Part shown: positions 5,072 to 57,817 of the stretch, one piece after another
Position numbering within the stretch: position 1 is the first letter of the stretch
How the letters are laid out: every line of letters begins with the position of its first letter
NCBI GenBank assembly: GCA_016293845.1
Contig: JAEDDH010000001.1
Coordinates: 29,211 to 93,210 of the forward strand
Direction: 5' to 3'
DNA from: Bacteroidales bacterium
Lineage (GTDB): Bacteria > Bacteroidota > Bacteroidia > Bacteroidales > UBA3824
DNA: 64,000 bases
Translations under genes and position numbers: made by a program
The notes under the pieces: model-generated
The model's input: the letters and a program-made list of their open reading frames with translations, nothing else
What the model was told of the DNA's origin: nothing
Database searches by the model: none

Positions 5072-5386
5072 ATGGACAACATAGCATTCAACGGGTTAGT
5101 AACCTTTCTTTGCGGTACGCTTTCTACCGATGATTTGAAACGCTTAGGCGATTATCTCTTGCAAGTGGTTGAAATGCGTGACATTGATTCTGTGCCTTGC
5201 CCTTACACCAAAGAGGAGTTAAACGCAATGATTGATAGAGCCGAAGCCGAAATAGCGGCGGGGCTTGGAACTCCAAGCGAAGAAGTATTTCGCGAACTCT
5301 ATGAGGAAATTGAACGAGACGAAAAAAAAGCCGCTAACCAGAAGCGTAAGAAAATAAAAAAAGAACCTTTATGTGAGATGGTATGA
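5072..5386 (+). CDS. putative antitoxin partner of the downstream RelE/ParE toxin
   Basis: Small acidic/basic protein immediately upstream of a RelE/ParE-like ORF, with a 4-bp ATGA overlap. Confidence 0.35.
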   Translation: MDNIAFNGLVTFLCGTLSTDDLKRLGDYLLQVVEMRDIDSVPCPYTKEELNAMIDRAEAEIAAGLGTPSEEVFRELYEEIERDEKKAANQKRKKIKKEPLCEMV

Positions 5387-5694
5387 AGGTAATTTGGCAA
5401 GATGATGCAAAAAAATCTTTGAGACAAATTTCGAGATATATTGGTTCTAAATTCGGAAACACAGCCAAACTTGAATTTGTTAAAACGGTAGAGGAGTATA
5501 ATACAATGCTGAGTCAGATGCCTTATCTGTTTGCTATTGAACCCTTGTTTGATGACCGTCCCGAAACTTACCGTAGTGTGTTGATAGCCAACCGCAGCCG
5601 ATTGGTGTACCGTGTTGATGGCGACGTTGTCAATGTTGTTGCCTTTTGGGATTGCCTTAGAAATACTAAAAACAAGGCTAAAAAGATTAAATGA
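5383..5694 (+). CDS. type II toxin-antitoxin system RelE/ParE family toxin
   Basis: 103 aa with a RelE/ParE-like fold pattern (KVIWQDDAKKSL..., C-terminal YRV..DVVNVVAF..R); translationally coupled to the upstream ORF. Confidence 0.55.
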   Translation: MKVIWQDDAKKSLRQISRYIGSKFGNTAKLEFVKTVEEYNTMLSQMPYLFAIEPLFDDRPETYRSVLIANRSRLVYRVDGDVVNVVAFWDCLRNTKNKAKKIK

Positions 5695-5762
5695 TTAATT
5701 CATTTCGCATTCTGCATTATGAATTCTGCATTATGAATTATGAATTATGCATTAATTATGCA

Positions 5763-6272
5763 TTACTCAATCCCCAAATAATACACTATCACCGAATGTG
5801 GGGGAATTTTGTTTAAATCACCTACAAGACCTTTGGCGGCGTGAGGAGGAAGTATGAGCACTGCCTCGTCGCCGTGACGAAGAAATTTAAATGCCTTTAT
5901 CAATCCCACAATCATTTCGCTGCTGCCTGCCACAAGATTTTTCTTGCCGTCGGTTTGGCTGTCGTAGCATAAAGTGCCGTCGAGAAGTTCTATTCGGTAG
6001 GAGAGGATTACATTTGGATCTTGCTCTACGCTAAGGCCTTCGCCGTGCTTGGTAATCATATAGCGGATGCCTCCATCGGCAGTGTCCATTTGCCAATTGC
6101 GGCGTTTGATGTAGTTTTCTATTTGCTCCATATCCTGTTTAACGAGGTATTTGTTGGCTGTGATTAGATTCTCGTTAAACATACTGTACTCCTGAGGCTT
6201 TTTGCTATTGTCGGGAGTCTGCGAGCAAGCCGCCAAAAAAAGTGCTACTAATATATAAGGTGTGTGTTTCAT
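5763..6272 (-). CDS. FKBP-type peptidyl-prolyl cis-trans isomerase lipoprotein
   Basis: Lipoprotein signal peptide (LAACSQ) and a C-terminal FKBP domain. Confidence 0.7.
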   Translation of the reverse strand: MKHTPYILVALFLAACSQTPDNSKKPQEYSMFNENLITANKYLVKQDMEQIENYIKRRNWQMDTADGGIRYMITKHGEGLSVEQDPNVILSYRIELLDGTLCYDSQTDGKKNLVAGSSEMIVGLIKAFKFLRHGDEAVLILPPHAAKGLVGDLNKIPPHSVIVYYLGIE

Positions 6273-20878: not shown

Positions 20879-20882
20879 TTTG

Positions 20883-20956
20883 TGACCCCTGCAGGATTCA
20901 AACCTGCAACCTTTTGATCCGTAGTCAAATACTCTATTCAGTTGAGCTAAGGGGCC
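20883..20956 (-). tRNA. tRNA-Arg (anticodon ACG)
   Basis: Folded by eye into a cloverleaf: acceptor GGCCCCT/AGGGGTC, anticodon stem TTTGA/TCAAA, loop CTACGGA, T-arm GCAGG-TTTGAATC-CTGCA; CCA not encoded. Confidence 0.8.
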
Positions 20957-20968
20957 GTTGAAATTTTG

Positions 20969-21042
20969 TGACCTCGGCGGGATTCAAACCCACAACCTTT
21001 TGATCCGTAGTCAAATGCTCTATTCAGTTGAGCTACGAGGCC
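20969..21042 (-). tRNA. tRNA-Arg (anticodon ACG), divergent second copy
   Basis: Same anticodon arm as the first copy; acceptor and T-stems differ (GGCCTCG..., GTGGG-TTTGAATC-CCGCC). Confidence 0.8.
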
Positions 21043-40034: not shown

Positions 40035-40484
40035 AAGTATCTGATTTACTGTAAGTTTTCAAGCACAGAGAAAAATATTGTTGATTGGATTGCTGAGGAG
40101 GAGTGATGGCTTTTTGGGGTAAACAAGATATTCTTTTTTTCTCCAAAAAAAATCTTTAAAATCCCTTGTTCTTTTCCCTTCCTTTCATTATCTTTACACC
40201 AAATTAAAAACATTAATACAAAACAGATAGATTTTTAAACTAACATATTAAAATATTGGGCTTTACGCTCTTATTCTCTTAACGGAAAATCTGCAAAATT
40301 TTTACAACGGGAGAGTAAGCTGCGAGTAAGGTTCACGTCGTATAGGCGTGAGCCGTTTTCGTGCTTTTTACCGTTGTTCAAGGCATTGCAGAGCCTTCCG
40401 TTAATAATAAGCACATTTAAGAAAACGTCTCCACGCTTTTTTCTTTTGCTTATTTTGAGCCAAGGTCCGCAAAACAAATAAGCA

Positions 40485-42185
40485 ATGCCGACACTCAACT
40501 GGATAGGTAAAGAACAGATAATAAACCATCACAACGACGTGCCGTTCCGTGTGTTGGAACGCAAATACACGTTTGGGGAAATTAGAAATGAGAAAGTAGA
40601 AATTGGAAATGAGAAAGTAGAAATTAGAAATGAAGGCAATGCCGACAACCAAATTTCTAATTCCACATTTCAAATTTCTAATTCAAAAATAATCCACGGC
40701 GACAATCTTGAAGCCCTCAAAGCCCTTCTGCCCGAATACGAAGGTCGCATCAAATGTATCTACATCGACCCTCCGTACAACACTGGCAATTCTCCCGATA
40801 AAGGAGGATGGGTTTATTATGACAATGTGGACAGTCCTAAACTACGAAAATGGTTTGGTCAGGTTGTCGGTAAAGAATTAGACGACCTTTCTCGCCACGA
40901 CAAATGGCTTTGTATGATGTATCCGCGTTTAATGTTGCTTCAAAAATTACTTAGCGATGACGGTGCAATGTTCATTTCTATTGACGATAATGAGCAAGGT
41001 AATTTGCTCAACATCTGTCAATCTATTTTTGGTGTAAGTAATGTGGAGCAATACATTTGGTGTTTGCAAGATAAATCAGAAAGTTCTTTTGTAAAAACGG
41101 CAGGATTGACCGTTAGAAAAGAACACGAATATATAATTGCGTGCTTTAAAGGAAACGTAAAGTTTAAGAAATATGAGGGCAAAAGAGATTTTGCTGATAA
41201 TATCAAAGACAATCCCGACAATGATCCTCGTGGTCCTTGGTTTTCGGGTAATATTTCAAGGAATGGTATAAAAACAACAACGGGGTCAAAGTATTATACA
41301 ATAACCAATCCCGCAGGAGAAAGTTTTTCTCGAAACTGGACTTTGACGAAAGAAGAATATGAAGAGGCACTTAAAGACAACCGTATTTATTTTGCAAAAA
41401 ATGGTGCAGGTGTTCCTCGCCTGAAAATTTTTCCTCAATCCAATTCTGAGTTAATTCAAAGTAGTCTATTCACTGATGTTCATACTTCTATTACGGGAAA
41501 GAATGAATTGAAGGAAATATTTGGAGAGTCTCCGTTCCCATTTCCTAAACCGACAACGTTAATTGTGCGGCTTATGCAATTAATAACAGACCCCGACTCC
41601 ATCATCCTCGATTCCTTTGCCGGTTCGGGTACAACTGCCCACGCCGTTCTCAATCTTAACAAAGCGGATGGCGGCAACCGAAAATTTATCCTTGTGGAAA
41701 TGGAGGATTATGCCGAAAGTATTACCGCTGAGCGTGTTAAAAGGGTGATTGATGGTTACGGCGATACCGAAGGCACGGGCGGAAGTTTTGATTTTTACGA
41801 ACTTGGCGAACCCGTTTTTGATGCCGACGGCAATCTCAACGAAAACATTGGAACCGAAAAAATCCGTGAATATATTTGGTACAGTGAAATTAGAAATGAG
41901 AAATTAGGAATTAGAAATGTGGACGACTGCGACAGCCAAATTTCTAATTCCTCATTTCAAATCCCTAATTCCAAATATTTTCTTGGAAAATATTTGGGCA
42001 CGGCGTATTATTTTTATTACGAAAAAGACCAAATCACAACGCTCGACAAGGCGTTTCTCAACACCATCACGCAAAGGGCGGAGCAATACGTTATCTATGC
42101 CGACAATTGTTTGCTGTCGGCAGAGTTTATGCAGGCTAACCACATTATTTTCAAAAAGATACCACGCGACGTGAAAAAATTGTAA
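40485..42185 (+). CDS. mod: Type III restriction-modification system Mod subunit (beta-class N6-adenine DNA methyltransferase)
   Basis: N-terminal LNWIGKE; motif IV DPPYNT precedes motif I DSFAGSGTT (beta permutation); sits upstream of a res helicase-nuclease. Confidence 0.85.
   Translation: MPTLNWIGKEQIINHHNDVPFRVLERKYTFGEIRNEKVEIGNEKVEIRNEGNADNQISNSTFQISNSKIIHGDNLEALKALLPEYEGRIKCIYIDPPYNTGNSPDKGGWVYYDNVDSPKLRKWFGQVVGKELDDLSRHDKWLCMMYPRLMLLQKLLSDDGAMFISIDDNEQGNLLNICQSIFGVSNVEQYIWCLQDKSESSFVKTAGLTVRKEHEYIIACFKGNVKFKKYEGKRDFADNIKDNPDNDPRGPWFSGNISRNGIKTTTGSKYYTITNPAGESFSRNWTLTKEEYEEALKDNRIYFAKNGAGVPRLKIFPQSNSELIQSSLFTDVHTSITGKNELKEIFGESPFPFPKPTTLIVRLMQLITDPDSIILDSFAGSGTTAHAVLNLNKADGGNRKFILVEMEDYAESITAERVKRVIDGYGDTEGTGGSFDFYELGEPVFDADGNLNENIGTEKIREYIWYSEIRNEKLGIRNVDDCDSQISNSSFQIPNSKYFLGKYLGTAYYFYYEKDQITTLDKAFLNTITQRAEQYVIYADNCLLSAEFMQANHIIFKKIPRDVKKL
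40579..40691 (+). repeat. in-frame inverted-repeat element copy A inside mod (21-bp sub-units GAAATTAGAAATGAGAAAGTA x3, 16-bp spacer, inverted arm CAAATTTCTAATTCC x2)
   Basis: Direct reading: the left arm and the reverse complement of the right arm share the core AATTAGAAAT; translates as EIRNEKVEIGNEKVEIRNEGN...QISNSTFQISNSK. Confidence 0.6.
41886..41975 (+). repeat. in-frame inverted-repeat element copy B inside mod
   Basis: GAAATTAGAAATGAGAAATTAGGAATTAGAAAT, spacer, CAAATTTCTAATTCCTCATTTCAAATCCCTAATTCC; the spacer GGACGACTGCGACAGCC resembles the copy A spacer GGCAATGCCGACAACC. Confidence 0.6.
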
Positions 42186-42215
42186 ATTGTAAATTAGAAA
42201 TTGTAAATTTGCAAA
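42186..42215 (+). repeat. partial copy D of the same element immediately after the mod stop
   Basis: attgtaaattagaaattgtaaatttgcaaa contains the ATTAGAAAT core. Confidence 0.35.
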
Positions 42216-42246
42216 GTGAAAAACAATTAAAGTGGATAATTAAGAT

Positions 42247-42612
42247 ATGAAAGAAAACGAAACCAACAACGTGATTTTGGTGAAGAGCAAGGCTTTTGCA
42301 TTGCTTATAATCCGTATGTATAAATATTTGACTGACGAAAAGAAGGAGTTTGTTTTGTCAAAACAAGTTCTTCGAAGTGGAACAAGTATTGGAGCAAACG
42401 TAAAAGAGACTGTATATGCACAGAGCAAAGCCGATTTCTATGCAAAATTATACATTGCTACAAAGGAGGCAGGCGAAACAGAATACTGGCTTGAATTGTT
42501 GCACGAAAGCGGTTATCTTGATGATAATGTTTTTGATAAACTAAATGTGCAGTGTACAGAACTAATCAAGTTGTTAGTTTCCATTACTAAAACTCAAAAA
42601 GAACAGAAATAA
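42247..42612 (+). CDS. four-helix-bundle protein (23S rRNA intervening-sequence protein family, TIGR02436-like)
   Basis: 121 aa; pattern ...KSKAFALLIIRMYK...SKQVLRSGTSIGANVKE...YIATKEAGETEYWLELL... typical of this Bacteroidetes-abundant family. Confidence 0.65.
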   Translation: MKENETNNVILVKSKAFALLIIRMYKYLTDEKKEFVLSKQVLRSGTSIGANVKETVYAQSKADFYAKLYIATKEAGETEYWLELLHESGYLDDNVFDKLNVQCTELIKLLVSITKTQKEQK

Positions 42613-42624
42613 ACGATGTCAAAT

Positions 42625-42686
42625 CAATTAGAAATGAGAAGTAGAAGGTTGAAAATTTCTAATTTCTAATTCCAAATTTCAAATTA
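42625..42686 (+). repeat. non-coding copy C of the inverted-repeat element, abutting the res start
   Basis: CAATTAGAAATGAGAAGTAGAAG, 4-nt spacer, AAAATTTCTAATTTCTAATTCCAAATTTCAAATT. Confidence 0.55.
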
Positions 42687-42691
42687 AAAAA

Positions 42692-45334
42692 GTGGAACTG
42701 AAACCCTATCAACAACAGATATTAGACGATTTGCAGCGTTTTATGCAATATGTGCAGGAGACCAAAAACATTCAGGATGCGTTCCATAAGTTTTGGTTTG
42801 AGCATCCGCGCACTGGTCTTACTCCGTTTCCGGACGAGGCGGTGGAGCCGTACAAAGACAACGTGAAAAACGCTCCTCACGTGTGTATCAAAGTGCCTAC
42901 GGGCGGCGGCAAAACTTTTATTGCGTCGGCGGCGTTGGGTACGATTTTCAATAATTTTGACGACAACCATTTTAAAACAGTGGTTTGGCTTGTGCCGTCG
43001 ATTACCATTTTGGAACAGACGTTGAAAAACCTTCGCAACAAAAATCATCCTTACAGAAACCGCATCGACGTAGATTTTCAAAACCGTGTTGAAGTGCTCG
43101 ACAAATCGCAAGCCTTGCAGGGCGCGGGATTTTCGTTGCAGGTTGTAAAAGCAAACCTTTGTATCATAGTGATGAGTTTCGACAGCCTCCGCGCCCGCAA
43201 AAAGGAAGACCGCAAGGTTTATCAAGAAAACGGCAATTTGCTTTCGTTCCAGTCAATTGTTGGCACTGACGAAAACGGCGACCCCGATTTGCAGTTGATG
43301 CGCGTTTTGCAGGCGTTGAATCCCGTTGTAATTGTTGACGAAAGCCACAACGCCGAAACCGAACTCAGCGTAGAGATGTTGCAAAACTTGAATCCGAGTT
43401 TTATCCTCGACCTCACAGCCACGCCGCGCAAAAATAGCAACATCATTAGTTTTACCGACGCCTACGAACTCAAAAAGGAGTGTATGGTAAAATTGCCGGT
43501 TATTGTTCATAATCATCAGACCAAAAACGATGTAATAAATTCGGCGTTGGAATTGCAGAGCAATTTGGAGCGCGACGCCAAAAAATCGCAAAAAGAAGGC
43601 GGCAAATATATCCGCCCGATTGTGTTGTTTCAGGCGCAGCCACGCACCGGCGAGGAGAATATCACCTACGAAAAAATCAAACAGACGCTCCTCGACCTCA
43701 AAATCCCCGAAGAGCAAATCCGCATCAAAACCGCCGACCGCAACGAAATCAAAGACGAAGATTTGCTGTCGCCATCTTGCCCTGTGCGTTATATCATCAC
43801 TGTCAACGCCTTGAAAGAGGGTTGGGATTGTCCGTTTGCCTACATACTTGCCTCGCTTGCCGACCGCTCGTCGTCGGTGGATGTAGAACAGATTCTTGGG
43901 CGCGTGCTGCGTATGCCGTGGGTTAGCAAAAACCAAAATCCAATGCTCAATATGAGTTATGTGCTCACATCGTCGGCAAAATTTTTGGATACGCTCGACA
44001 ATATCGTCAAGGGTTTGAATCGTGCGGGTTTCAGCGAAAATGATTACAAAATTGCCGAACCCGAAAAACCGAAAGCCCCTGTGGTTGCAGAATCCGCCAT
44101 CCAAAATGTTGGAATGAAAGATATGTTTGAAACAAAGGTCGATTCTACGACAGAGGTTGCTGACGATGGCAATGGGGACGAACTTGATGCCGCCAAAATT
44201 GAGTTTGATCCGCAAGAGGAATCAACCCCAAAAAGCGATGTCGCACAGATAGTGCAGCAAGCGCAAGCCGAGGCTGAAAAAGAAGTTGAAATTGCAACCA
44301 AGCATAAAATCAACAACATACCAAACGAATTGTCAAAGCAAGTGAAGTGTTATAAGATGAAAGAAGTGTTTCGCGATTCGGCACAATCGTTGAAACTTCC
44401 GCAGTTTATGAGTGCCGACAAGTCGCAGGAACTCACCACGGATTTGTTTGTGGAGGTGTATGAAAAGGCTATGTTTGAGGGCGAAATGCTTTTGAAGGAT
44501 TTTAAACTCGGCAACGAGAAATCCGACATTGATTTTGATGCTGTGGAATCCACAATGTACCGTGTAGATTTGGACGAAACTTCGCATAGTCATACTCCAA
44601 CATACCTAAAAGTGGACGGCATTGCGCACGAAACAATTGCCGCTTACATTCTTGATCCCTCGAAGAAAAATATCAGGGTCAAGAATTGCACATTCCGCCT
44701 TAAAAACATTATTGGCAAAATGTATCCGATTCCCGACAAGGAGATTGAACTCTACATCAAACACGTTTTGGAACGTTTTTCCGACGAGCAATTTGCCGAC
44801 TTGATAACCCACGAATATACCTACGCCGAAAAAATCAAGGCTAAAATTCGTCAGTTGGCTACCGACTACAAAGAAAGGCAGTTTTTTAATTTGGTTGACA
44901 AAGATTTGATTTTCACGGAGGGGGCGTTCCCATTGCCCGACGAGATTATTCCCAGCAAGACTATTTCTGGCTTGCCAAAATCGCTCTACGAAAAAGAGGG
45001 CGACATAGACGGTTTTGAGCGCGAGGTAATCAACGACGTTGCCAACCTATCGAATGTGGAATGGTGGACGCGCAATCTTGAACGCGGCAAAGGTTTCTGT
45101 ATCAATGGTTTCATCAATCATTATCCCGATTTTATAATCAAGACCAAGAAGGGCAAAATAGTCCTTCTCGAAACCAAGGGCGACCATCTCGACGCTGAAA
45201 AAAAGATAAAACTCGGCAACCTTTGGGCAAGCAAAGCGGGCAACAATTACCGTTATTGCTTAGTTTACAAAAACCGCGAAGTCGATGGTGCATACACCAA
45301 ACAAGGATTTTTGGAGGTGTTGAAGGAGTTATAA
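42692..45334 (+). CDS. res: Type III restriction enzyme Res subunit (SF2 helicase plus nuclease)
   Basis: Walker A VPTGGGKT and DExH box VIVDESHNA, with a C-terminal endonuclease region; apparent GTG start at 42692. Confidence 0.85.
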   Translation: MELKPYQQQILDDLQRFMQYVQETKNIQDAFHKFWFEHPRTGLTPFPDEAVEPYKDNVKNAPHVCIKVPTGGGKTFIASAALGTIFNNFDDNHFKTVVWLVPSITILEQTLKNLRNKNHPYRNRIDVDFQNRVEVLDKSQALQGAGFSLQVVKANLCIIVMSFDSLRARKKEDRKVYQENGNLLSFQSIVGTDENGDPDLQLMRVLQALNPVVIVDESHNAETELSVEMLQNLNPSFILDLTATPRKNSNIISFTDAYELKKECMVKLPVIVHNHQTKNDVINSALELQSNLERDAKKSQKEGGKYIRPIVLFQAQPRTGEENITYEKIKQTLLDLKIPEEQIRIKTADRNEIKDEDLLSPSCPVRYIITVNALKEGWDCPFAYILASLADRSSSVDVEQILGRVLRMPWVSKNQNPMLNMSYVLTSSAKFLDTLDNIVKGLNRAGFSENDYKIAEPEKPKAPVVAESAIQNVGMKDMFETKVDSTTEVADDGNGDELDAAKIEFDPQEESTPKSDVAQIVQQAQAEAEKEVEIATKHKINNIPNELSKQVKCYKMKEVFRDSAQSLKLPQFMSADKSQELTTDLFVEVYEKAMFEGEMLLKDFKLGNEKSDIDFDAVESTMYRVDLDETSHSHTPTYLKVDGIAHETIAAYILDPSKKNIRVKNCTFRLKNIIGKMYPIPDKEIELYIKHVLERFSDEQFADLITHEYTYAEKIKAKIRQLATDYKERQFFNLVDKDLIFTEGAFPLPDEIIPSKTISGLPKSLYEKEGDIDGFEREVINDVANLSNVEWWTRNLERGKGFCINGFINHYPDFIIKTKKGKIVLLETKGDHLDAEKKIKLGNLWASKAGNNYRYCLVYKNREVDGAYTKQGFLEVLKEL

Positions 45335-50719: not shown

Positions 50720-51382
50720 ATGACATTATCCGATTTAGATATTGACCTAATACTGAGGCTGTTTGTGGGCTCTATGCTTGGCGGAATTATCGGCTTGGAG
50801 AGAGAATACAGGTCGAAATTCGCTGGGTTTCGCACGCATTTTCTTGTGGCATTGGGCAGTTCGCTTTTTATGGTGATGTCGATACACGGATTCGACGATT
50901 TGGCTGTGCGTTACGATGCGTCGCGTATTGCTGCTCAGATAGTTTCGGGCATCGGCTTTATCGGTGCGGGTGCAATTATGTTTCAAAAACACGCCGTCAG
51001 AGGACTCACCACTGCTGCGGGACTTTGGGTAACGGCGGCTATTGGTGTTTGCGCTGGTTCGGGAAAATTCCTTCTTGCTATTGCCGCCACGGTGATGGTG
51101 CTGCTGTGCCTCGAAACTCTTAATTTTGTGCTCAGCAAACTTGGCAAAAAGATTATTTCGCTAAGTATTTCGGCTCATTCAAAGGCTGAAATCACCACCA
51201 TTTTGCAAAACCTCAAAAACGCTGGTTTTAAAGTTGATACATATAATATGGAGTTGAAAAAACGCTCCGACGGCGATGTTTACGAACTAACAATGGAGGT
51301 AAAGGTAAACCGTAAGGAATACGACCAAAAAGTTAGCGAATTATTTGCCTACTTTGATGATGTTAGTATTGATACTATTTGA
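50720..51382 (+). CDS. MgtC/SapB family membrane protein
   Basis: N-terminal MgtC domain (LGGIIGLEREYRSKFAGFRTH) plus a C-terminal ACT-like domain. Confidence 0.8.
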   Translation: MTLSDLDIDLILRLFVGSMLGGIIGLEREYRSKFAGFRTHFLVALGSSLFMVMSIHGFDDLAVRYDASRIAAQIVSGIGFIGAGAIMFQKHAVRGLTTAAGLWVTAAIGVCAGSGKFLLAIAATVMVLLCLETLNFVLSKLGKKIISLSISAHSKAEITTILQNLKNAGFKVDTYNMELKKRSDGDVYELTMEVKVNRKEYDQKVSELFAYFDDVSIDTI

Positions 51383-51432
51383 TAATCATAATTTACAATT
51401 GATAATTGACAATTCAAAATTAATTAAGACTG

Positions 51433-52164
51433 ATGACCAAAAATATTGAGATAGTGCTGTCGCCTGCGCTTTATCCGTATTACCACAAATGCGGAACGGT
51501 GGTGCTCATTGATGTGCTGAGGTGCACTTCTACCATTACCACAGCCCTCGCCCACGGTGCTTTGAGTGCCGAGACTTTTGGAACACCTCAATCGGTTTTT
51601 GAGGCAAAAAAAAGCGATAATGATTATATTTTTGTGGGCGAGCAAAACGGCATAATTATCCCCGGTTTTGATTACAACAATTCGCCTGTGGCAATGACTC
51701 CGCAGAATATCTCAAACCGAAAACTCGTTTTTGTTACCACCAACGGCACTTATATGCGGTCGCTAATTACCGATGCCGAGCGTGTTTACGCAGGATGTTT
51801 TCTTAATTGTAAGGCTTTGGCTGATAGATTGATAAACGAATTTGAAGATGTGCAGTTGATTTGTTCTGGCGGAAGAAACAAACCCAATATTGAGGATTCA
51901 CTGTTTGCTGGAATGTTGGCAGATAGGTTAGTAAGTTCGGGCAAATTCTCATTCAATAGCGTTAGTGTGATGATGTCTATGTTGCTGTATAATAATGCAA
52001 AAGATGATTTAAAACAATATGCACTGTCGCACTCTAAGTATTTGTTCGACCTTTATAACTTAAATATGGATTATCGCGCCGATTTGGATTTTTCATTTAA
52101 TATTGATAAGTTTGGCATTGTTCCCGAAGAGGAAAATCCTTATATCTTTGTGCTGAAAAAATAA
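51433..52164 (+). CDS. 2-phosphosulfolactate phosphatase family protein (ComB-like)
   Basis: ComB signature VLIDVLRCTSTITTA. Confidence 0.7.
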   Translation: MTKNIEIVLSPALYPYYHKCGTVVLIDVLRCTSTITTALAHGALSAETFGTPQSVFEAKKSDNDYIFVGEQNGIIIPGFDYNNSPVAMTPQNISNRKLVFVTTNGTYMRSLITDAERVYAGCFLNCKALADRLINEFEDVQLICSGGRNKPNIEDSLFAGMLADRLVSSGKFSFNSVSVMMSMLLYNNAKDDLKQYALSHSKYLFDLYNLNMDYRADLDFSFNIDKFGIVPEEENPYIFVLKK

Positions 52165-57601: not shown

Positions 57602-57703
57602 AAGTGGTAGATTTAGTGAGGCAAAGATAAGATTTTTTGGTAAAACAGTTTGGTTTTAATGTCAAAATCTGATTTTTAACTAAAATAGTGCCTTAAAAAT
57701 TTT

Positions 57704-57804
57704 TATATCTCGCCAAAACCGCATATTTTTGCCATGTTTTGGCGAGATATAAAAATTATATTCAGCCAAAACAATATAATTTTACCCTGTTTTGGCGAGA
57801 TATA
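57704..57804 (+). promoter_or_regulatory. inverted and direct 16-bp repeats (TATATCTCGCCAAAAC / GTTTTGGCGAGATATA x2) in the promoter region of the DUF234 ATPase gene
   Basis: Exact 16-bp inverted repeat at 57704-57719 versus 57736-57751, and a direct second copy at 57789-57804, 14 nt before the ATG. Confidence 0.45.
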
Positions 57805-57817
57805 AAATTATTATATT

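What the first reader, a model, noticed from the sequence alone, without database searches (positions are those of the whole stretch)
40485..45334. Type III R-M locus carrying an inverted-repeat element family, with two in-frame copies inside mod
An element built from 21-bp sub-units occurs four times within 2.2 kb. The sub-units are GAAATTAGAAATGAGAAAGTA-like; a short spacer separates them from the inverse CAAATTTCTAATTCC-like sub-units. Copies A (40579-40691) and B (41886-41975) sit inside the mod reading frame. Both translate in the same frame to EIRNEK.../QISNS(S/T)FQI.NSK. They bracket the whole methyltransferase catalytic core: motif IV DPPY is at about aa 96 and motif I FAGSGTT at about aa 380. 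A partial copy D lies just after the mod stop, and copy C (42625-42686) lies just before the GTG start of res. The 21-bp sub-unit is 7 codons long, so copy-number change would keep the frame. Homologous recombination between the direct copies A and B would delete the catalytic core. In-frame MITE-like insertions and repeat-mediated remodelling of a Type III mod gene are a plausible route to phase or specificity variation. The mod peptides encoded by the repeats (Ser/Asn/Gln-rich) look like tolerated linkers.
Basis: seen in the sequence. Interest (0 to 1): 0.7.

Follow-up and report, generated by a model that had tools for sequence, protein, structure and literature searches.

The report
Hairpin repeats read through inside mod
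Two hairpin-forming 7-bp-repeat elements sit in frame in two floppy linkers of a Type III methylase gene, and a small gene cassette with matching repeats lies between mod and res; they look like tolerated selfish DNA of the 23S rRNA intervening-sequence kind, not a programmed switch.

Summary
Hairpins A (40578-40691) and B (41886-41975) lie in the same codon phase inside mod and bracket the catalytic core.

Two corrections:
- The true unit is 7 bp. The 21-bp unit is three alternating heptamers.

A sibling allele about 97% identical (L124) lacks the 506-bp IVP cassette. There the mod stop is 2 nt from the res start, and GC-rich GTAG-type palindromes replace A and B.

Alleles at 90% identity or more show all four combinations of heptamer and GTAG types at the two sites. 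They also show clean 21-bp losses and a B-to-A patch conversion.

The two positions are predicted disordered linkers. In distant orthologues they carry whatever palindrome family is present in that locus.

IVP genes in Bacteroidota, Firmicutes, Spirochaetes and Cyanobacteria are flanked by inverted heptamer arrays, as reported for the Coxiella 23S IVS.

Core-deleted mini-Mod ORFs that join the two linkers exist in relatives. Repeat-linked deletion therefore does happen.

I found no evidence of phase or specificity switching. Target-recognition-domain exchange breakpoints lie elsewhere.

Verdict: a new variant of a known kind, of moderate interest.

The parts
40237..40484 (+). Conserved leader of the mod-res module. 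It contains a terminator-like hairpin at 40330-40354.
   Evidence: Homology to L124, L220, L001 and L207 starts at 40237-40246, while the sequence further upstream differs. The hairpin GGTTCACGTCGTATAGGCGTGAGCC followed by a T-run was found and is conserved in L124.
40485..42185 (+). Type III mod gene, 566 aa.
   Evidence: PF01555 E 1e-32. PADLOC MTase_III E 1.8e-174. PDB homologues 6k0w and 4zcf (EcoP15I Mod) match within residues about 63-443.
40578..40691 (+). Hairpin A, in frame in Mod at about residues 32-69. Left heptamer array 40578-40633, loop about 40634-40649, right array 40650-40687.
   Evidence: The block 40573-40685 is replaced by 55 nt of GC-rich palindromes in L124 and by a GTAG palindrome in L220. 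L222 has exactly one 21-bp unit fewer. Residues 32-64 have pLDDT below 50.
41886..41975 (+). Hairpin B, in frame in Mod at about residues 468-497. It is in direct orientation and the same codon phase as A.
   Evidence: 38-nt arms, 82% complementary, 13-nt loop. MFE -28 kcal/mol, z -5.7. Replaced by a GTAG palindrome in L124 and L222. Residues 475-495 have pLDDT below 50.
42177..42223 (+). Array D, heptamers AAATTGT/AAATTAG. It is the left flank of the IVP cassette. Its first heptamer is made of the last codons of mod.
   Evidence: Tandem Repeats Finder period 7. Complementary to the right arm of C (I3). Absent from L124 beyond the native AAATTGTA.
42186..42691 (+). 506-bp inserted cassette: array D, the IVP gene and hairpin C.
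   Evidence: It is missing as one block from L124, where the mod TAG is followed by TT and then the res ATG. The flanks are otherwise about 93-97% identical.
42247..42612 (+). Four-helix-bundle protein gene of the 23S_rRNA_IVP / S23p family, 121 aa.
   Evidence: PF05635 E 1.3e-27. TIGR02436 E 1.9e-31. It is the only such gene in the window. The nearest homologues (87% identity) sit in the same mod-IVP-res position.
42625..42686 (+). Hairpin C, the right flank of the cassette. It abuts the res start codon.
   Evidence: Its right arm 42649-42685 is complementary both to its own left arm and to D.
42692..45334 (+). Type III res gene, 880 aa, GTG start.
   Evidence: PF04851 E 1.4e-19. PADLOC REase_III E 9.5e-80. 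The start codon is ATG in the cassette-free allele L124.

Best explanation
A and B are non-coding-type palindromic repeats made of two inverted arrays of 7-bp units around a short loop. They have come to lie in the two disordered linkers that join the methyltransferase core of Mod to its N-terminal strand and its C-terminal domain.

They belong to the same repeat family as the arrays flanking the neighbouring four-helix-bundle (IVP/S23p) gene. That gene is a 506-bp cassette inserted between the mod stop and the res start. The cassette has the anatomy of an ORF-bearing 23S rRNA intervening sequence: an S23p ORF, tandem heptamers and inverted ends. A and B have the anatomy of ORF-less ones.

Shown:
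- Insertion or replacement on a near-identical backbone.
- Read-through in frame.
- Expansion and contraction in 21-bp steps.
- Sequence exchange between A and B.
- Occupation of the same two linkers by other palindrome families in other alleles and in distant orthologues.

Inferred:
- The elements are selfish or neutral passengers that survive only where a floppy linker tolerates them and only when length and phase keep the frame.
- Within an ORF, arrays of three alternating heptamers persist because slippage by the 21-bp superunit is frame-neutral.
- The elements make the gene prone to deletion between the two sites. This decays the system rather than switching it reversibly.
For: - Sibling allele L124 is identical to the window except at three blocks: A, B and the cassette.
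- Alleles at 90% identity or more show heptamer/heptamer, GTAG/heptamer, heptamer/GTAG and GTAG/GTAG combinations, plus losses of 7 and 14 aa.
- At DNA level there is a clean 21-bp deletion in L222 and a B-type patch in L125 copy A.
- Basal linkers are short in 70-odd distant orthologues.
- Within one locus both sites share one family: L001 AATTAGC, L003 GATTNNN, L002 GACGACGCG-TCC-CGCGTCGTC, L157 AGACTTCGGAAGTCT.
- Heptamer inserts occur in 4 of 8 IVP-positive mod loci and 0 of 77 IVP-negative ones.
- IVP genes are flanked by inverted heptamer arrays in 17 distinct loci and on Nostoc, Dolichospermum and Treponema plasmids.
- The spacing from IVP to hsdR is 29, 36 or 43 nt between strains, that is steps of one heptamer.
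- The Coxiella IVS has an S23p ORF, inverted ends and strain-variable heptameric repeats (PMC4990558).
- In-frame heptamer hairpins occur in unrelated genes.
- The inserted segments have pLDDT below 50 and no secondary structure.
- PDB homologues align only between the two sites.
Against: - Every independent insertion seen lands in the same two linkers, although other low-confidence loops exist (99-114, 194-212, 229-241, 421-432). A pure selection filter may therefore not be the whole story, and some targeting to existing palindromes or to these sequences is possible.
- Within 64 kb this heptamer family occurs only in the R-M locus. Genome-wide spread in this organism is unproven.
- No target-site duplication or mobilising enzyme was found.
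- IVP genes sit immediately upstream of the restriction subunit in both Type III and Type I systems. That regularity hints at function.
- Part of the 'replacement' between alleles is better explained by homologous recombination with diverged mod alleles than by transposition. The replaced tract at site 2 extends about 25 nt into flanking coding sequence.
Confidence: 0.6

Rival explanations
1. RNA-level regulatory device. The hairpins in mod, and the stem formed by the cassette ends, are RNase III or structure-dependent processing sites. They would set the ratio of Mod to Res, for example by delaying or limiting Res after the module enters a new host, as intervening sequences are excised from 23S rRNA.
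For: - IVS elements with S23p ORFs are cut by RNase III in the stem formed by their inverted ends (PMC4990558).
- Correia elements in mRNAs are cut by RNase III at their terminal inverted repeats (PMC10969869).
- IVP lies directly upstream of res or hsdR in independent Type III and Type I loci.
- In the cassette-free allele the mod stop and res start are 2 nt apart, which suggests coupling that the cassette would disturb.
- A and B fold significantly better than shuffles.
Against: - The minimum-free-energy fold of the whole cassette uses local hairpins, not a D:C long stem. The overall z-score is only -1.8.
- The arms are AT-rich and only 77-84% complementary.
- Alleles with unrelated GC-rich palindromes, or with none, appear equally intact.
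- IVP cassettes also sit in ordinary, non-R-M operons.
- The same hairpins occur in housekeeping genes.
Confidence: 0.15
2. The repeats are a programmed route to variation: either on/off switching by heptamer slippage or A x B deletion, or specificity change by repeat-mediated remodelling.
For: - The unit is 7 bp, so a single-unit slip would shift the frame.
- Heptamer copy number does vary between strains in intergenic arrays.
- A and B are direct and in phase, so an A x B deletion gives an in-frame 130-aa product.
- Natural mini-Mods join the two linkers. 9 of 12 deletion breakpoints in six such ORFs fall at the two linkers. In L224 a palindrome sits at the junction.
- Type III mod genes are classic phase-variable genes (PMC1557822, listed).
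Against: - The arrays in mod are imperfect heptamers (78-84% matches at period 7).
- All 13 close alleles are in frame, and the length changes seen are 21 or 42 bp.
- No deletion product of this allele was found at high identity.
- The mini-Mods look like fixed remnants in other lineages.
- Target-recognition-domain exchange breakpoints are not at the hairpins.
- Deletion is irreversible, so it is not phase variation.
Confidence: 0.1
3. Protein-binding sites. The heptamer arrays are recognition sites for the IVP protein, an oligomeric four-helix bundle related to the Avd protein of diversity-generating retroelements. The copies in mod would belong to the same cis-acting set as the cassette flanks, used for mobility or for regulating the operon.
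For: - Within a locus the arrays in mod and those flanking IVP use the same heptamer family, and the family differs between loci.
- Heptamer inserts in mod were seen only in IVP-positive loci, 4 of 8 against 0 of 77.
- Arrays flank IVP genes across four phyla.
Against: - Co-variation is equally expected from common descent or local conversion.
- L206 has IVP with heptamer flanks but a GTAG palindrome in mod.
- Genomes such as Dialister carry many heptamer arrays of families different from their IVP flanks.
- No binding data exist.
- The Coxiella study suggested that S23p is not translated there.
Confidence: 0.1
4. Adaptive protein linkers. The Ser/Asn/Gln/Glu-rich peptides are selected at the protein level to lengthen two hinges of Mod, for example to tune Mod2Res assembly.
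For: - Both inserts lie at domain boundaries, between E22-30 and E67-72, and between H457-469 and E499-503.
- Many orthologues have lengthened linkers at the same two positions.
Against: - The peptides differ completely between near-identical alleles (EIRNEK... versus DCRDAARHVPT...).
- Their sequence is dictated by DNA palindromes. The same DNA family is found outside genes.
Confidence: 0.05

Closest known systems
23S rRNA intervening sequences carrying an S23p/IVP ORF (Coxiella burnetii, Leptospira; PMC4990558)
   Same: - A small four-helix-bundle ORF of the same Pfam family (PF05635).
- Complementary ends.
- Tandem heptameric repeats next to the ORF, with copy number differing between strains.
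- Regarded as a selfish element.
- ORF-less short versions exist in other bacteria, as A and B are here.
   Different: - Here the element is not in rRNA. One copy lies between two protein genes of an R-M operon.
- The ORF-less copies lie inside a coding sequence and are translated.
- RNase III excision is untested, and the long stem is not the predicted minimum-free-energy fold.
Rickettsia palindromic elements (RPE)
   Same: Palindromic repeats inserted in frame into unrelated protein-coding genes, at positions compatible with the fold, and read through as extra peptide (PMC10969869).
   Different: - A different sequence family and different phyla.
- RPEs are about 150 bp and are not built of 7-bp tandem units.
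- RPEs have no associated small ORF cassette.
Short tandemly repeated repetitive (STRR) heptanucleotide sequences of heterocystous cyanobacteria
   Same: Tandem 7-bp units dispersed in the genome. From my own knowledge, they are also found extending a helix of RNase P RNA. The Nostoc and Dolichospermum IVP genes examined here are flanked by exactly such arrays.
   Different: STRRs have been described mainly as intergenic fingerprinting repeats. As far as the searches here show, a link to IVP genes or to in-frame coding insertions has not been described.
REP / GTAG-tagged palindromes (PMC3733652)
   Same: The alternative alleles of the same two mod sites carry a GTAG...CTAC palindrome, ATTGTAGGGACGCGGCGCGCCACGTCCCTAC. 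The sites therefore behave as general palindrome slots.
   Different: The window's own elements are AT-rich heptamer arrays, not GTAG palindromes. No GTAG palindrome of that type is in the 64-kb window.
Simple-sequence-repeat phase-variable Type III mod genes (Haemophilus, Neisseria, Helicobacter)
   Same: A Type III mod gene with an intragenic tandem repeat, and allelic exchange of target-recognition domains.
   Different: Those use perfect tetra- or pentanucleotide tracts that shift the frame. Here the repeat is an imperfect heptamer array inside a hairpin, and only frame-preserving variants were seen.
Correia elements of Neisseria
   Same: Inverted-repeat elements co-transcribed with genes. 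They are possible RNase III substrates.
   Different: Correia elements have defined terminal inverted repeats, a TA target duplication and a fixed length. None of these was seen here.

Membership tests
Type III restriction-modification system | Mod methyltransferase with motif IV DPPY and motif I FxGxG, next to a Res helicase-nuclease | tested here: met
   PF01555 and PF04851. PADLOC MTase_III E 1.8e-174 and REase_III E 9.5e-80. D95-Y98 and F378-T384.
S23p-ORF-bearing intervening sequence (IVS) | ORF of the 23S_rRNA_IVP / S23p four-helix-bundle family inside the element | tested here: met
   PF05635 E 1.3e-27 and TIGR02436 E 1.9e-31 for 42247-42612.
S23p-ORF-bearing intervening sequence (IVS) | Complementary (inverted) ends able to form a stem around the ORF | tested here: inconclusive
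   Inverted arms 42178-42214 / 42649-42685 are 37 nt and 78% complementary. The minimum-free-energy fold of 42165-42700 prefers local hairpins. Other IVP loci reach 16-18 of 20 complementary.
S23p-ORF-bearing intervening sequence (IVS) | Tandem heptameric repeats beside the ORF, with copy number varying between strains | tested here: met
   Period-7 arrays D and C. The spacing from IVP to hsdR is 29, 36 or 43 nt in the P0168 loci. Compare the Coxiella GACAGAT repeats.
S23p-ORF-bearing intervening sequence (IVS) | Located in a helix (9, 25 or 45) of the 23S rRNA gene | tested here: not met
   There is no rRNA in the window. Rfam gathering matches are two tRNAs only. The element lies between mod and res.
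S23p-ORF-bearing intervening sequence (IVS) | Excised from the transcript by RNase III | not testable with these tools
   This needs RNA end mapping in a carrier strain and an rnc mutant.
MITE | Terminal inverted repeats | tested here: met
   Arms of A, B and C.
MITE | Target-site duplication at the insertion | tested here: not met
   Filled versus alternative or empty sites show no duplicated flank at A, B or the cassette.
MITE | Many dispersed copies in the same genome, and a related autonomous element with a transposase | tested here: inconclusive
   In 64 kb all copies of this family are in the R-M locus. There is no transposase in the locus. The rest of the 387-kb contig and genome could not be read.
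In-frame palindromic elements of the RPE kind | A palindromic repeat inserted in an ORF without stop or frameshift, at a structurally permissive place, in several unrelated genes | tested here: met
   In frame. pLDDT below 50 in the linkers. Also found in PseudoU_synth_2, TonB-dependent receptor, UvrD-like and DnaX genes of other genomes. It works like an RPE. Sequence membership of the Rickettsia families was not tested.
Simple-sequence-repeat phase-variable mod (contingency locus) | A perfect tandem tract in the ORF whose unit is not a multiple of 3, with frameshifted on/off variants in populations | tested here: not met
   The heptamers are imperfect (78-84% matches at period 7). The 13 close alleles are all in frame, with 21- or 42-bp differences only. 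The sample is limited, because frameshifted alleles would be hard to see in a protein database.
GTAG-tagged REP | A GTAG head and a GC-rich palindrome | tested here: not met
   Met by the alternative alleles L124, L220 and L222. Not met by the window: there are no matches to GTAGRGACG...CGTCYCTAC in 64 kb.

The most novel reading that the evidence does not exclude
IVP/S23p genes with inverted heptamer arrays may form one cross-phylum class of small mobile cassette. That class would be the common source of ORF-bearing and ORF-less 23S rRNA intervening sequences, of cyanobacterial STRR-type heptamer arrays, and of in-frame hairpin insertions in protein linkers such as A and B.

On this reading the arrays are the cis-acting sites of the IVP protein. 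The frequent position just upstream of restriction subunits would reflect a real effect on R-M expression or establishment.

This locus, with filled, empty and alternatively filled alleles at about 97% identity, would then be a natural system for working out how these elements move.
Probability: 0.25. Interest if true: 0.75.

Novelty: new variant of a known kind. Interest (0 to 1): 0.55.

Why it matters
Intervening sequences and their S23p ORFs have been called selfish elements for thirty years, yet no mechanism of spread or function is known. This locus offers several handles on that question:
- The same kind of element occurs outside rRNA.
- A cassette-free sibling allele pins its boundaries to the base.
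- Its ORF-less relatives can be read through as protein linkers.
- Two linkers of a Type III Mod are recurrent slots for whatever palindrome family is present in the locus.
- Natural 21-bp length variants, A/B conversion patches and core-deleted remnants show the kinds of change such repeats cause.

For R-M biology the practical message is cautionary. These repeats look like passengers and a route to decay. They do not look like a phase-variation device, and the odd low-complexity segments in annotated Mod proteins are translated palindromes.

Tried and rejected
- Rfam, at gathering threshold over the window and at E-value threshold over 40150-42750. Only two tRNAs and chance microRNA-like hits on hairpin B were found.
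- PADLOC for the IVP protein: no family.
- A search for GTAG-type palindromes in the window: none.
- The idea that the cassette ends form one long stem: not in the predicted fold.
- A search for mod genes split by an IVP gene at site 1 or 2. Partial matches L161 and L168 turned out to be intact, diverged genes.
- A search for the predicted 130-aa A x B deletion product of this allele. None was found at high identity. Only remnants in more distant lineages appeared. L224 did not translate exactly to P0271, but it shows the junction palindrome.
- The hypothesis that the hairpins mark the borders of target-recognition-domain exchange: rejected, because the breakpoints lie in conserved motifs.
- The hypothesis that IVP is specific to R-M systems: rejected, because cassettes also occur between ordinary genes.
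- A plasmid search with the whole module found only a weak helicase match.
- Literature searches found no description of IVP genes with heptamer arrays in R-M operons, or of in-frame copies.
- A genome-wide census in the host could not be done. The single genome-collection scan returned only other species.

Full report
**Observation**

The region holds a Type III R-M operon:
- mod, 40485-42185, 566 aa. PF01555; PADLOC MTase_III E 1.8e-174.
- A 121-aa gene, 42247-42612.
- res, 42692-45334, 880 aa, GTG start. PF04851; PADLOC REase_III E 9.5e-80.

The 18-mer GAAATTAGAAATGAGAAA with up to 3 mismatches occurs 15 times in the window against 0.22 expected. All but one of these lie in 40578-42680.

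Tandem Repeats Finder shows that the elementary unit is 7 bp, with a 21-bp superperiod in copy A (2.7 copies, 94% matches). Lag-7 periodicity is the only strong short periodicity in the 64 kb.

A and B are hairpins with arms 82-84% complementary. Their RNA folds are -23.1 kcal/mol (z -3.1) and -28.0 (z -5.7). Both begin in codon phase 0, at E32 and E468. They are direct repeats of each other and bracket DPPY (95-98) and FAGSGTT (378-384).

That gene belongs to the 23S_rRNA_IVP / four-helix-bundle family: PF05635 E 1.3e-27, TIGR02436 E 1.9e-31. D is inverse-complementary to the right arm of C (37 nt, 78%).

**Sibling alleles**

A metagenomic contig, L124, carries the same mod-res module. Away from three blocks its alignment to the window shows only scattered substitutions; blastn gives 92.8% over mod, a figure that still includes the diverged site-2 block, and 97.4% over res. 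The three blocks are:
1. At 40573-40685, hairpin A is replaced by 55 nt containing two small GC-rich palindromes.
2. At about 41883-41995, hairpin B is replaced by a GTAG...CTAC palindrome.
3. The 506 bp at 42186-42691 (D, the IVP gene and C) are absent. There the mod TAG is followed by TT and then the res ATG.

The cassette is therefore an insertion between a stop codon and a start codon that were 2 nt apart. It also changed the res start from ATG to GTG.

The 90%-identity cluster of the window's Mod contains proteins of 566, 559, 551 and 546 aa. Aligned, they show at site 1:
- Three 7-aa units in the window, P0001, P0242 and P0005.
- Two units in P0241, P0248 and P0044.
- Two units with a B-type loop (VDDCGDQ) in P0245, P0246 and P0054.
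- One unit in P0117.
- A GTAG-palindrome peptide (DCRDAARHVPT) in P0243 and P0244.

At site 2 most alleles have the heptamer hairpin. P0241 and P0002 have the GTAG type. All four combinations therefore exist on one backbone.

At DNA level, L222 copy A is the window's copy A minus exactly 21 bp. L125 copy A differs from the window's by two adjacent substitutions that make it identical to copy B. The same GTAG palindrome, ATTGTAGGGACGCGGCGCGCCACGTCCCTAC, sits at site 1 in L220 and at site 2 in L222 and L124.

At site 2 the replaced tract runs about 25 nt into flanking coding sequence. Part of this mosaic is therefore best explained by homologous recombination among diverged mod alleles rather than by fresh transposition.

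The module from about 40237 to 45334 lies in different genomic neighbourhoods in different contigs. The whole R-M unit is therefore itself mobile or exchanged.

**Orthologues**

In about 80 more distant mod loci the two positions are short linkers, about 10-15 aa and 14-17 aa. Longer inserts are derived.

Where inserts occur, both sites of one gene tend to carry the same family, and the family differs between genes:

| Locus | Family at the mod sites |
|---|---|
| L001 | AATTAGC/GCTAATT arrays |
| L003 | GATTNNN arrays |
| L002 | the 9-bp-stem palindrome GACGACGCG-TCC-CGCGTCGTC |
| L157 (35% identity) | AGACTTCGGAAGTCT |
| L126 | ATGAATT arrays, at site 2 only |

In L001, L003, L126 and the window the arrays in mod are of the same family as those flanking the IVP gene of the same locus. 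Heptamer-type inserts were found in 4 of 8 IVP-positive mod loci and in 0 of 77 IVP-negative ones. L206 is an exception: it has IVP with heptamer flanks but a GTAG palindrome in mod.

**The IVP cassette as a class**

The nearest IVP homologues (87% identity) sit in the same mod-IVP-res position. A 70% homologue sits between hsdS and hsdR of a Type I system. Others lie between ordinary genes: next to a TetR-like gene, upstream of serS, and between an O-methyltransferase and a U32 peptidase.

In 17 distinct loci the 70 nt on either side of the ORF show period-7 arrays. In 12 of the 17 the inverse complementarity is at least 16 of 20, against a background 95th percentile of 14. The heptamer sequences differ widely between loci.

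Plasmid-borne IVP genes show the same pattern:
- Nostoc punctiforme: GTCGGAG/GTCGGAA arrays.
- Dolichospermum: (AATTCGT)n before the ORF and (ACGAATT)n after it.
- Treponema saccharophilum: CTCTCCG arrays.

In ten contigs carrying the identical IVP protein P0168, the distance from the IVP stop to the hsdR start is 29, 36 or 43 nt, that is steps of one heptamer.

This matches what was reported for the Coxiella burnetii 23S rRNA intervening sequence. That is a 428-nt selfish element with an S23p ORF, terminal inverted repeats cut by RNase III, and tandem heptameric repeats upstream of the ORF whose number differs between strains (PMC4990558).

The cassette here has the anatomy of an ORF-bearing IVS but is not in rRNA. 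A and B have the anatomy of ORF-less ones but lie inside a coding sequence.

**Wider distribution of the heptamers**

The exact 18-mer occurs in more than 120 contigs of many phyla. In Dialister it is part of a longer multi-copy repeat. In Prevotella and others it forms hairpins.

In-frame copies lie in a pseudouridine synthase (L036), between the plug and barrel of a TonB-dependent receptor (L072), in a UvrD-like helicase (L079) and in a DnaX linker (L110). In-frame residence in linkers is thus a general property of these repeats, not something particular to mod.

**Protein context**

AlphaFold2 on the orthologue alignment gave mean pLDDT 69. Residues 32-64 and 475-495 have pLDDT below 50 and no secondary structure. 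They lie between well-predicted elements (E22-30 and E67-72; H457-469 and E499-503). The C-terminal domain 499-558 has pLDDT near 90.

Solved Type III Mods (6k0w, and 4zcf EcoP15I) match within residues about 63-443, that is between the two sites. The peptides differ completely between near-identical alleles, so they are dictated by the DNA.

**Deletion between the sites**

I searched with the predicted in-frame A x B recombinant (130 aa). No such product of this allele was found.

The search did return short ORFs from related lineages that join the N-terminal 30 residues directly to the C-terminal domain at the two linkers: P0266 (116 aa), P0271 (119 aa) and P0278 (108 aa, 7 member sequences). 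Three more have one breakpoint at a linker: P0272, P0275 and P0279. In total 9 of 12 breakpoints fall in the two linkers.

In the DNA of a P0271-like contig a single palindrome, CCTCTCCTTTGGAGAGGGCGGGGGGTGAGG, sits at the junction. Repeat-associated loss of the catalytic core does therefore occur, as fixed remnants.

**Mechanism**

Shown:
- Insertion or replacement at three precise places.
- Read-through in frame.
- 21-bp slippage.
- A/B conversion.
- Recurrent use of the same two linkers.
- Association of heptamer arrays with IVP genes.

Inferred, as the best-supported reading (about 0.6): these are selfish or neutral palindromic repeats of the IVS kind. They persist in mod because two disordered linkers tolerate them. 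Inside an ORF, only arrays whose effective slippage unit is 21 bp stay in frame. They make the gene liable to conversion and deletion.

Rivals:
- An RNA-processing role (0.15). The constant position upstream of R subunits and the RNase III precedents favour it. The predicted fold, the weak AT-rich stems, and intact alleles without the elements count against it.
- IVP-binding sites (0.1).
- Adaptive linkers (0.05).

One point remains unexplained by tolerance alone. Every independent insertion lies in these two linkers, although other low-confidence loops exist.

**Novelty**

In-frame palindromic elements (RPE), IVS elements with S23p ORFs and heptameric repeats, REPs and STRRs are each known.

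New here, as far as the literature searches show:
- An IVS-type cassette in an R-M operon with an empty-site allele.
- ORF-less relatives translated inside mod.
- The two linkers as recurrent palindrome slots.
- Inverted heptamer arrays around IVP genes as a general feature across phyla.

I file it as a new variant of a known kind, of moderate interest.

Noticed in passing
window 5707-5765: A heptamer array of a different sequence (GCATTCT/GCATTAT/GAATTAT, about 8 units) lies in the gap between two convergent ORFs, 5383-5694 (+) and 5763-6272 (-). It has one arm only and no IVP gene nearby.
   Followed up: partly
window 51379-51421: A heptamer array (TGATAAT/TGACAAT type) fills the 50-nt gap between two co-directional ORFs, 50720-51382 and 51433-52164. 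This resembles the arrays that abut start codons in the R-M loci.
   Followed up: partly
window 40237-40484: A roughly 250-nt leader upstream of mod is conserved with the module in L124, L220, L001 and L207 at 72-85% identity. It contains a terminator-like hairpin, GGTTCACGTCGTATAGGCGTGAGCC followed by a T-run, at 40330-40354. It has no Rfam match and its function is unknown.
   Followed up: partly
window 42689-42694 versus L124 7620-7626: The cassette insertion coincides with a change of the res start codon from ATG to GTG. It also separates a mod stop and a res start that are 2 nt apart in the cassette-free allele, which is possible translational coupling.
   Followed up: partly
window 57696-57812: A 53-nt unit is repeated 2.1 times. 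It holds nested perfect palindromes (AATTTTTATATCTCGCCAAAAC / GTTTTGGCGAGATATAAAAATT), is intergenic, and is unrelated to the heptamer family.
   Followed up: no
window 20882-21042: Two tandem tRNA-Arg(ACG) genes, 86 nt apart start to start and 89% identical.
   Followed up: no
L018, L019, L023, L030, L046 and many other Dialister and Fusicatenibacter contigs: A multi-copy element has a conserved left part (..ttgattgcggatgaaagc..cgcttgaatga), then GAAATTA/GAAATGA heptamers, then a GC hairpin (tggtggtgcggcgcataaaa..gaagcgccgcgg). Further heptamer arrays (AGTCACT, CTAATCC) often follow. It is dispersed many times per genome.
   Followed up: no
L210-L219 (Type I hsdS-IVP-hsdR loci): Contigs encoding the identical IVP protein differ by whole GCTAATT units between the IVP stop and the hsdR start (29, 36 or 43 nt). 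Many of these contigs begin inside hsdS, as if the assembly breaks at a variable hsdS.
   Followed up: partly
L225 2073-2423; proteins P0266, P0271, P0278: Mini-Mod ORFs of 108-119 aa consist of the N-terminal 30 residues fused to the C-terminal domain of Type III Mod. In L225 the ORF is followed by a Fic gene. One of them has 7 member sequences, so some may be maintained rather than decaying.
   Followed up: partly
L072 4840-5030 (minus strand): In a Prevotella TonB-dependent receptor gene the two heptamer arms are about 95 nt apart. The sequence between them looks like native receptor coding sequence (..RIEGGSFGYLSGAAN..), so the arms flank host sequence rather than a short loop.
   Followed up: no
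window about 40237-45334 compared with L124, L220 and L222: The whole mod-(IVP)-res module is found next to different neighbouring genes in different contigs: HflX-like GTPase, KdtA-like glycosyltransferase, or the window's peptidase and TamB-like genes. This implies horizontal movement of the 5-kb module. No integrase or clear terminal repeats were seen.
   Followed up: partly
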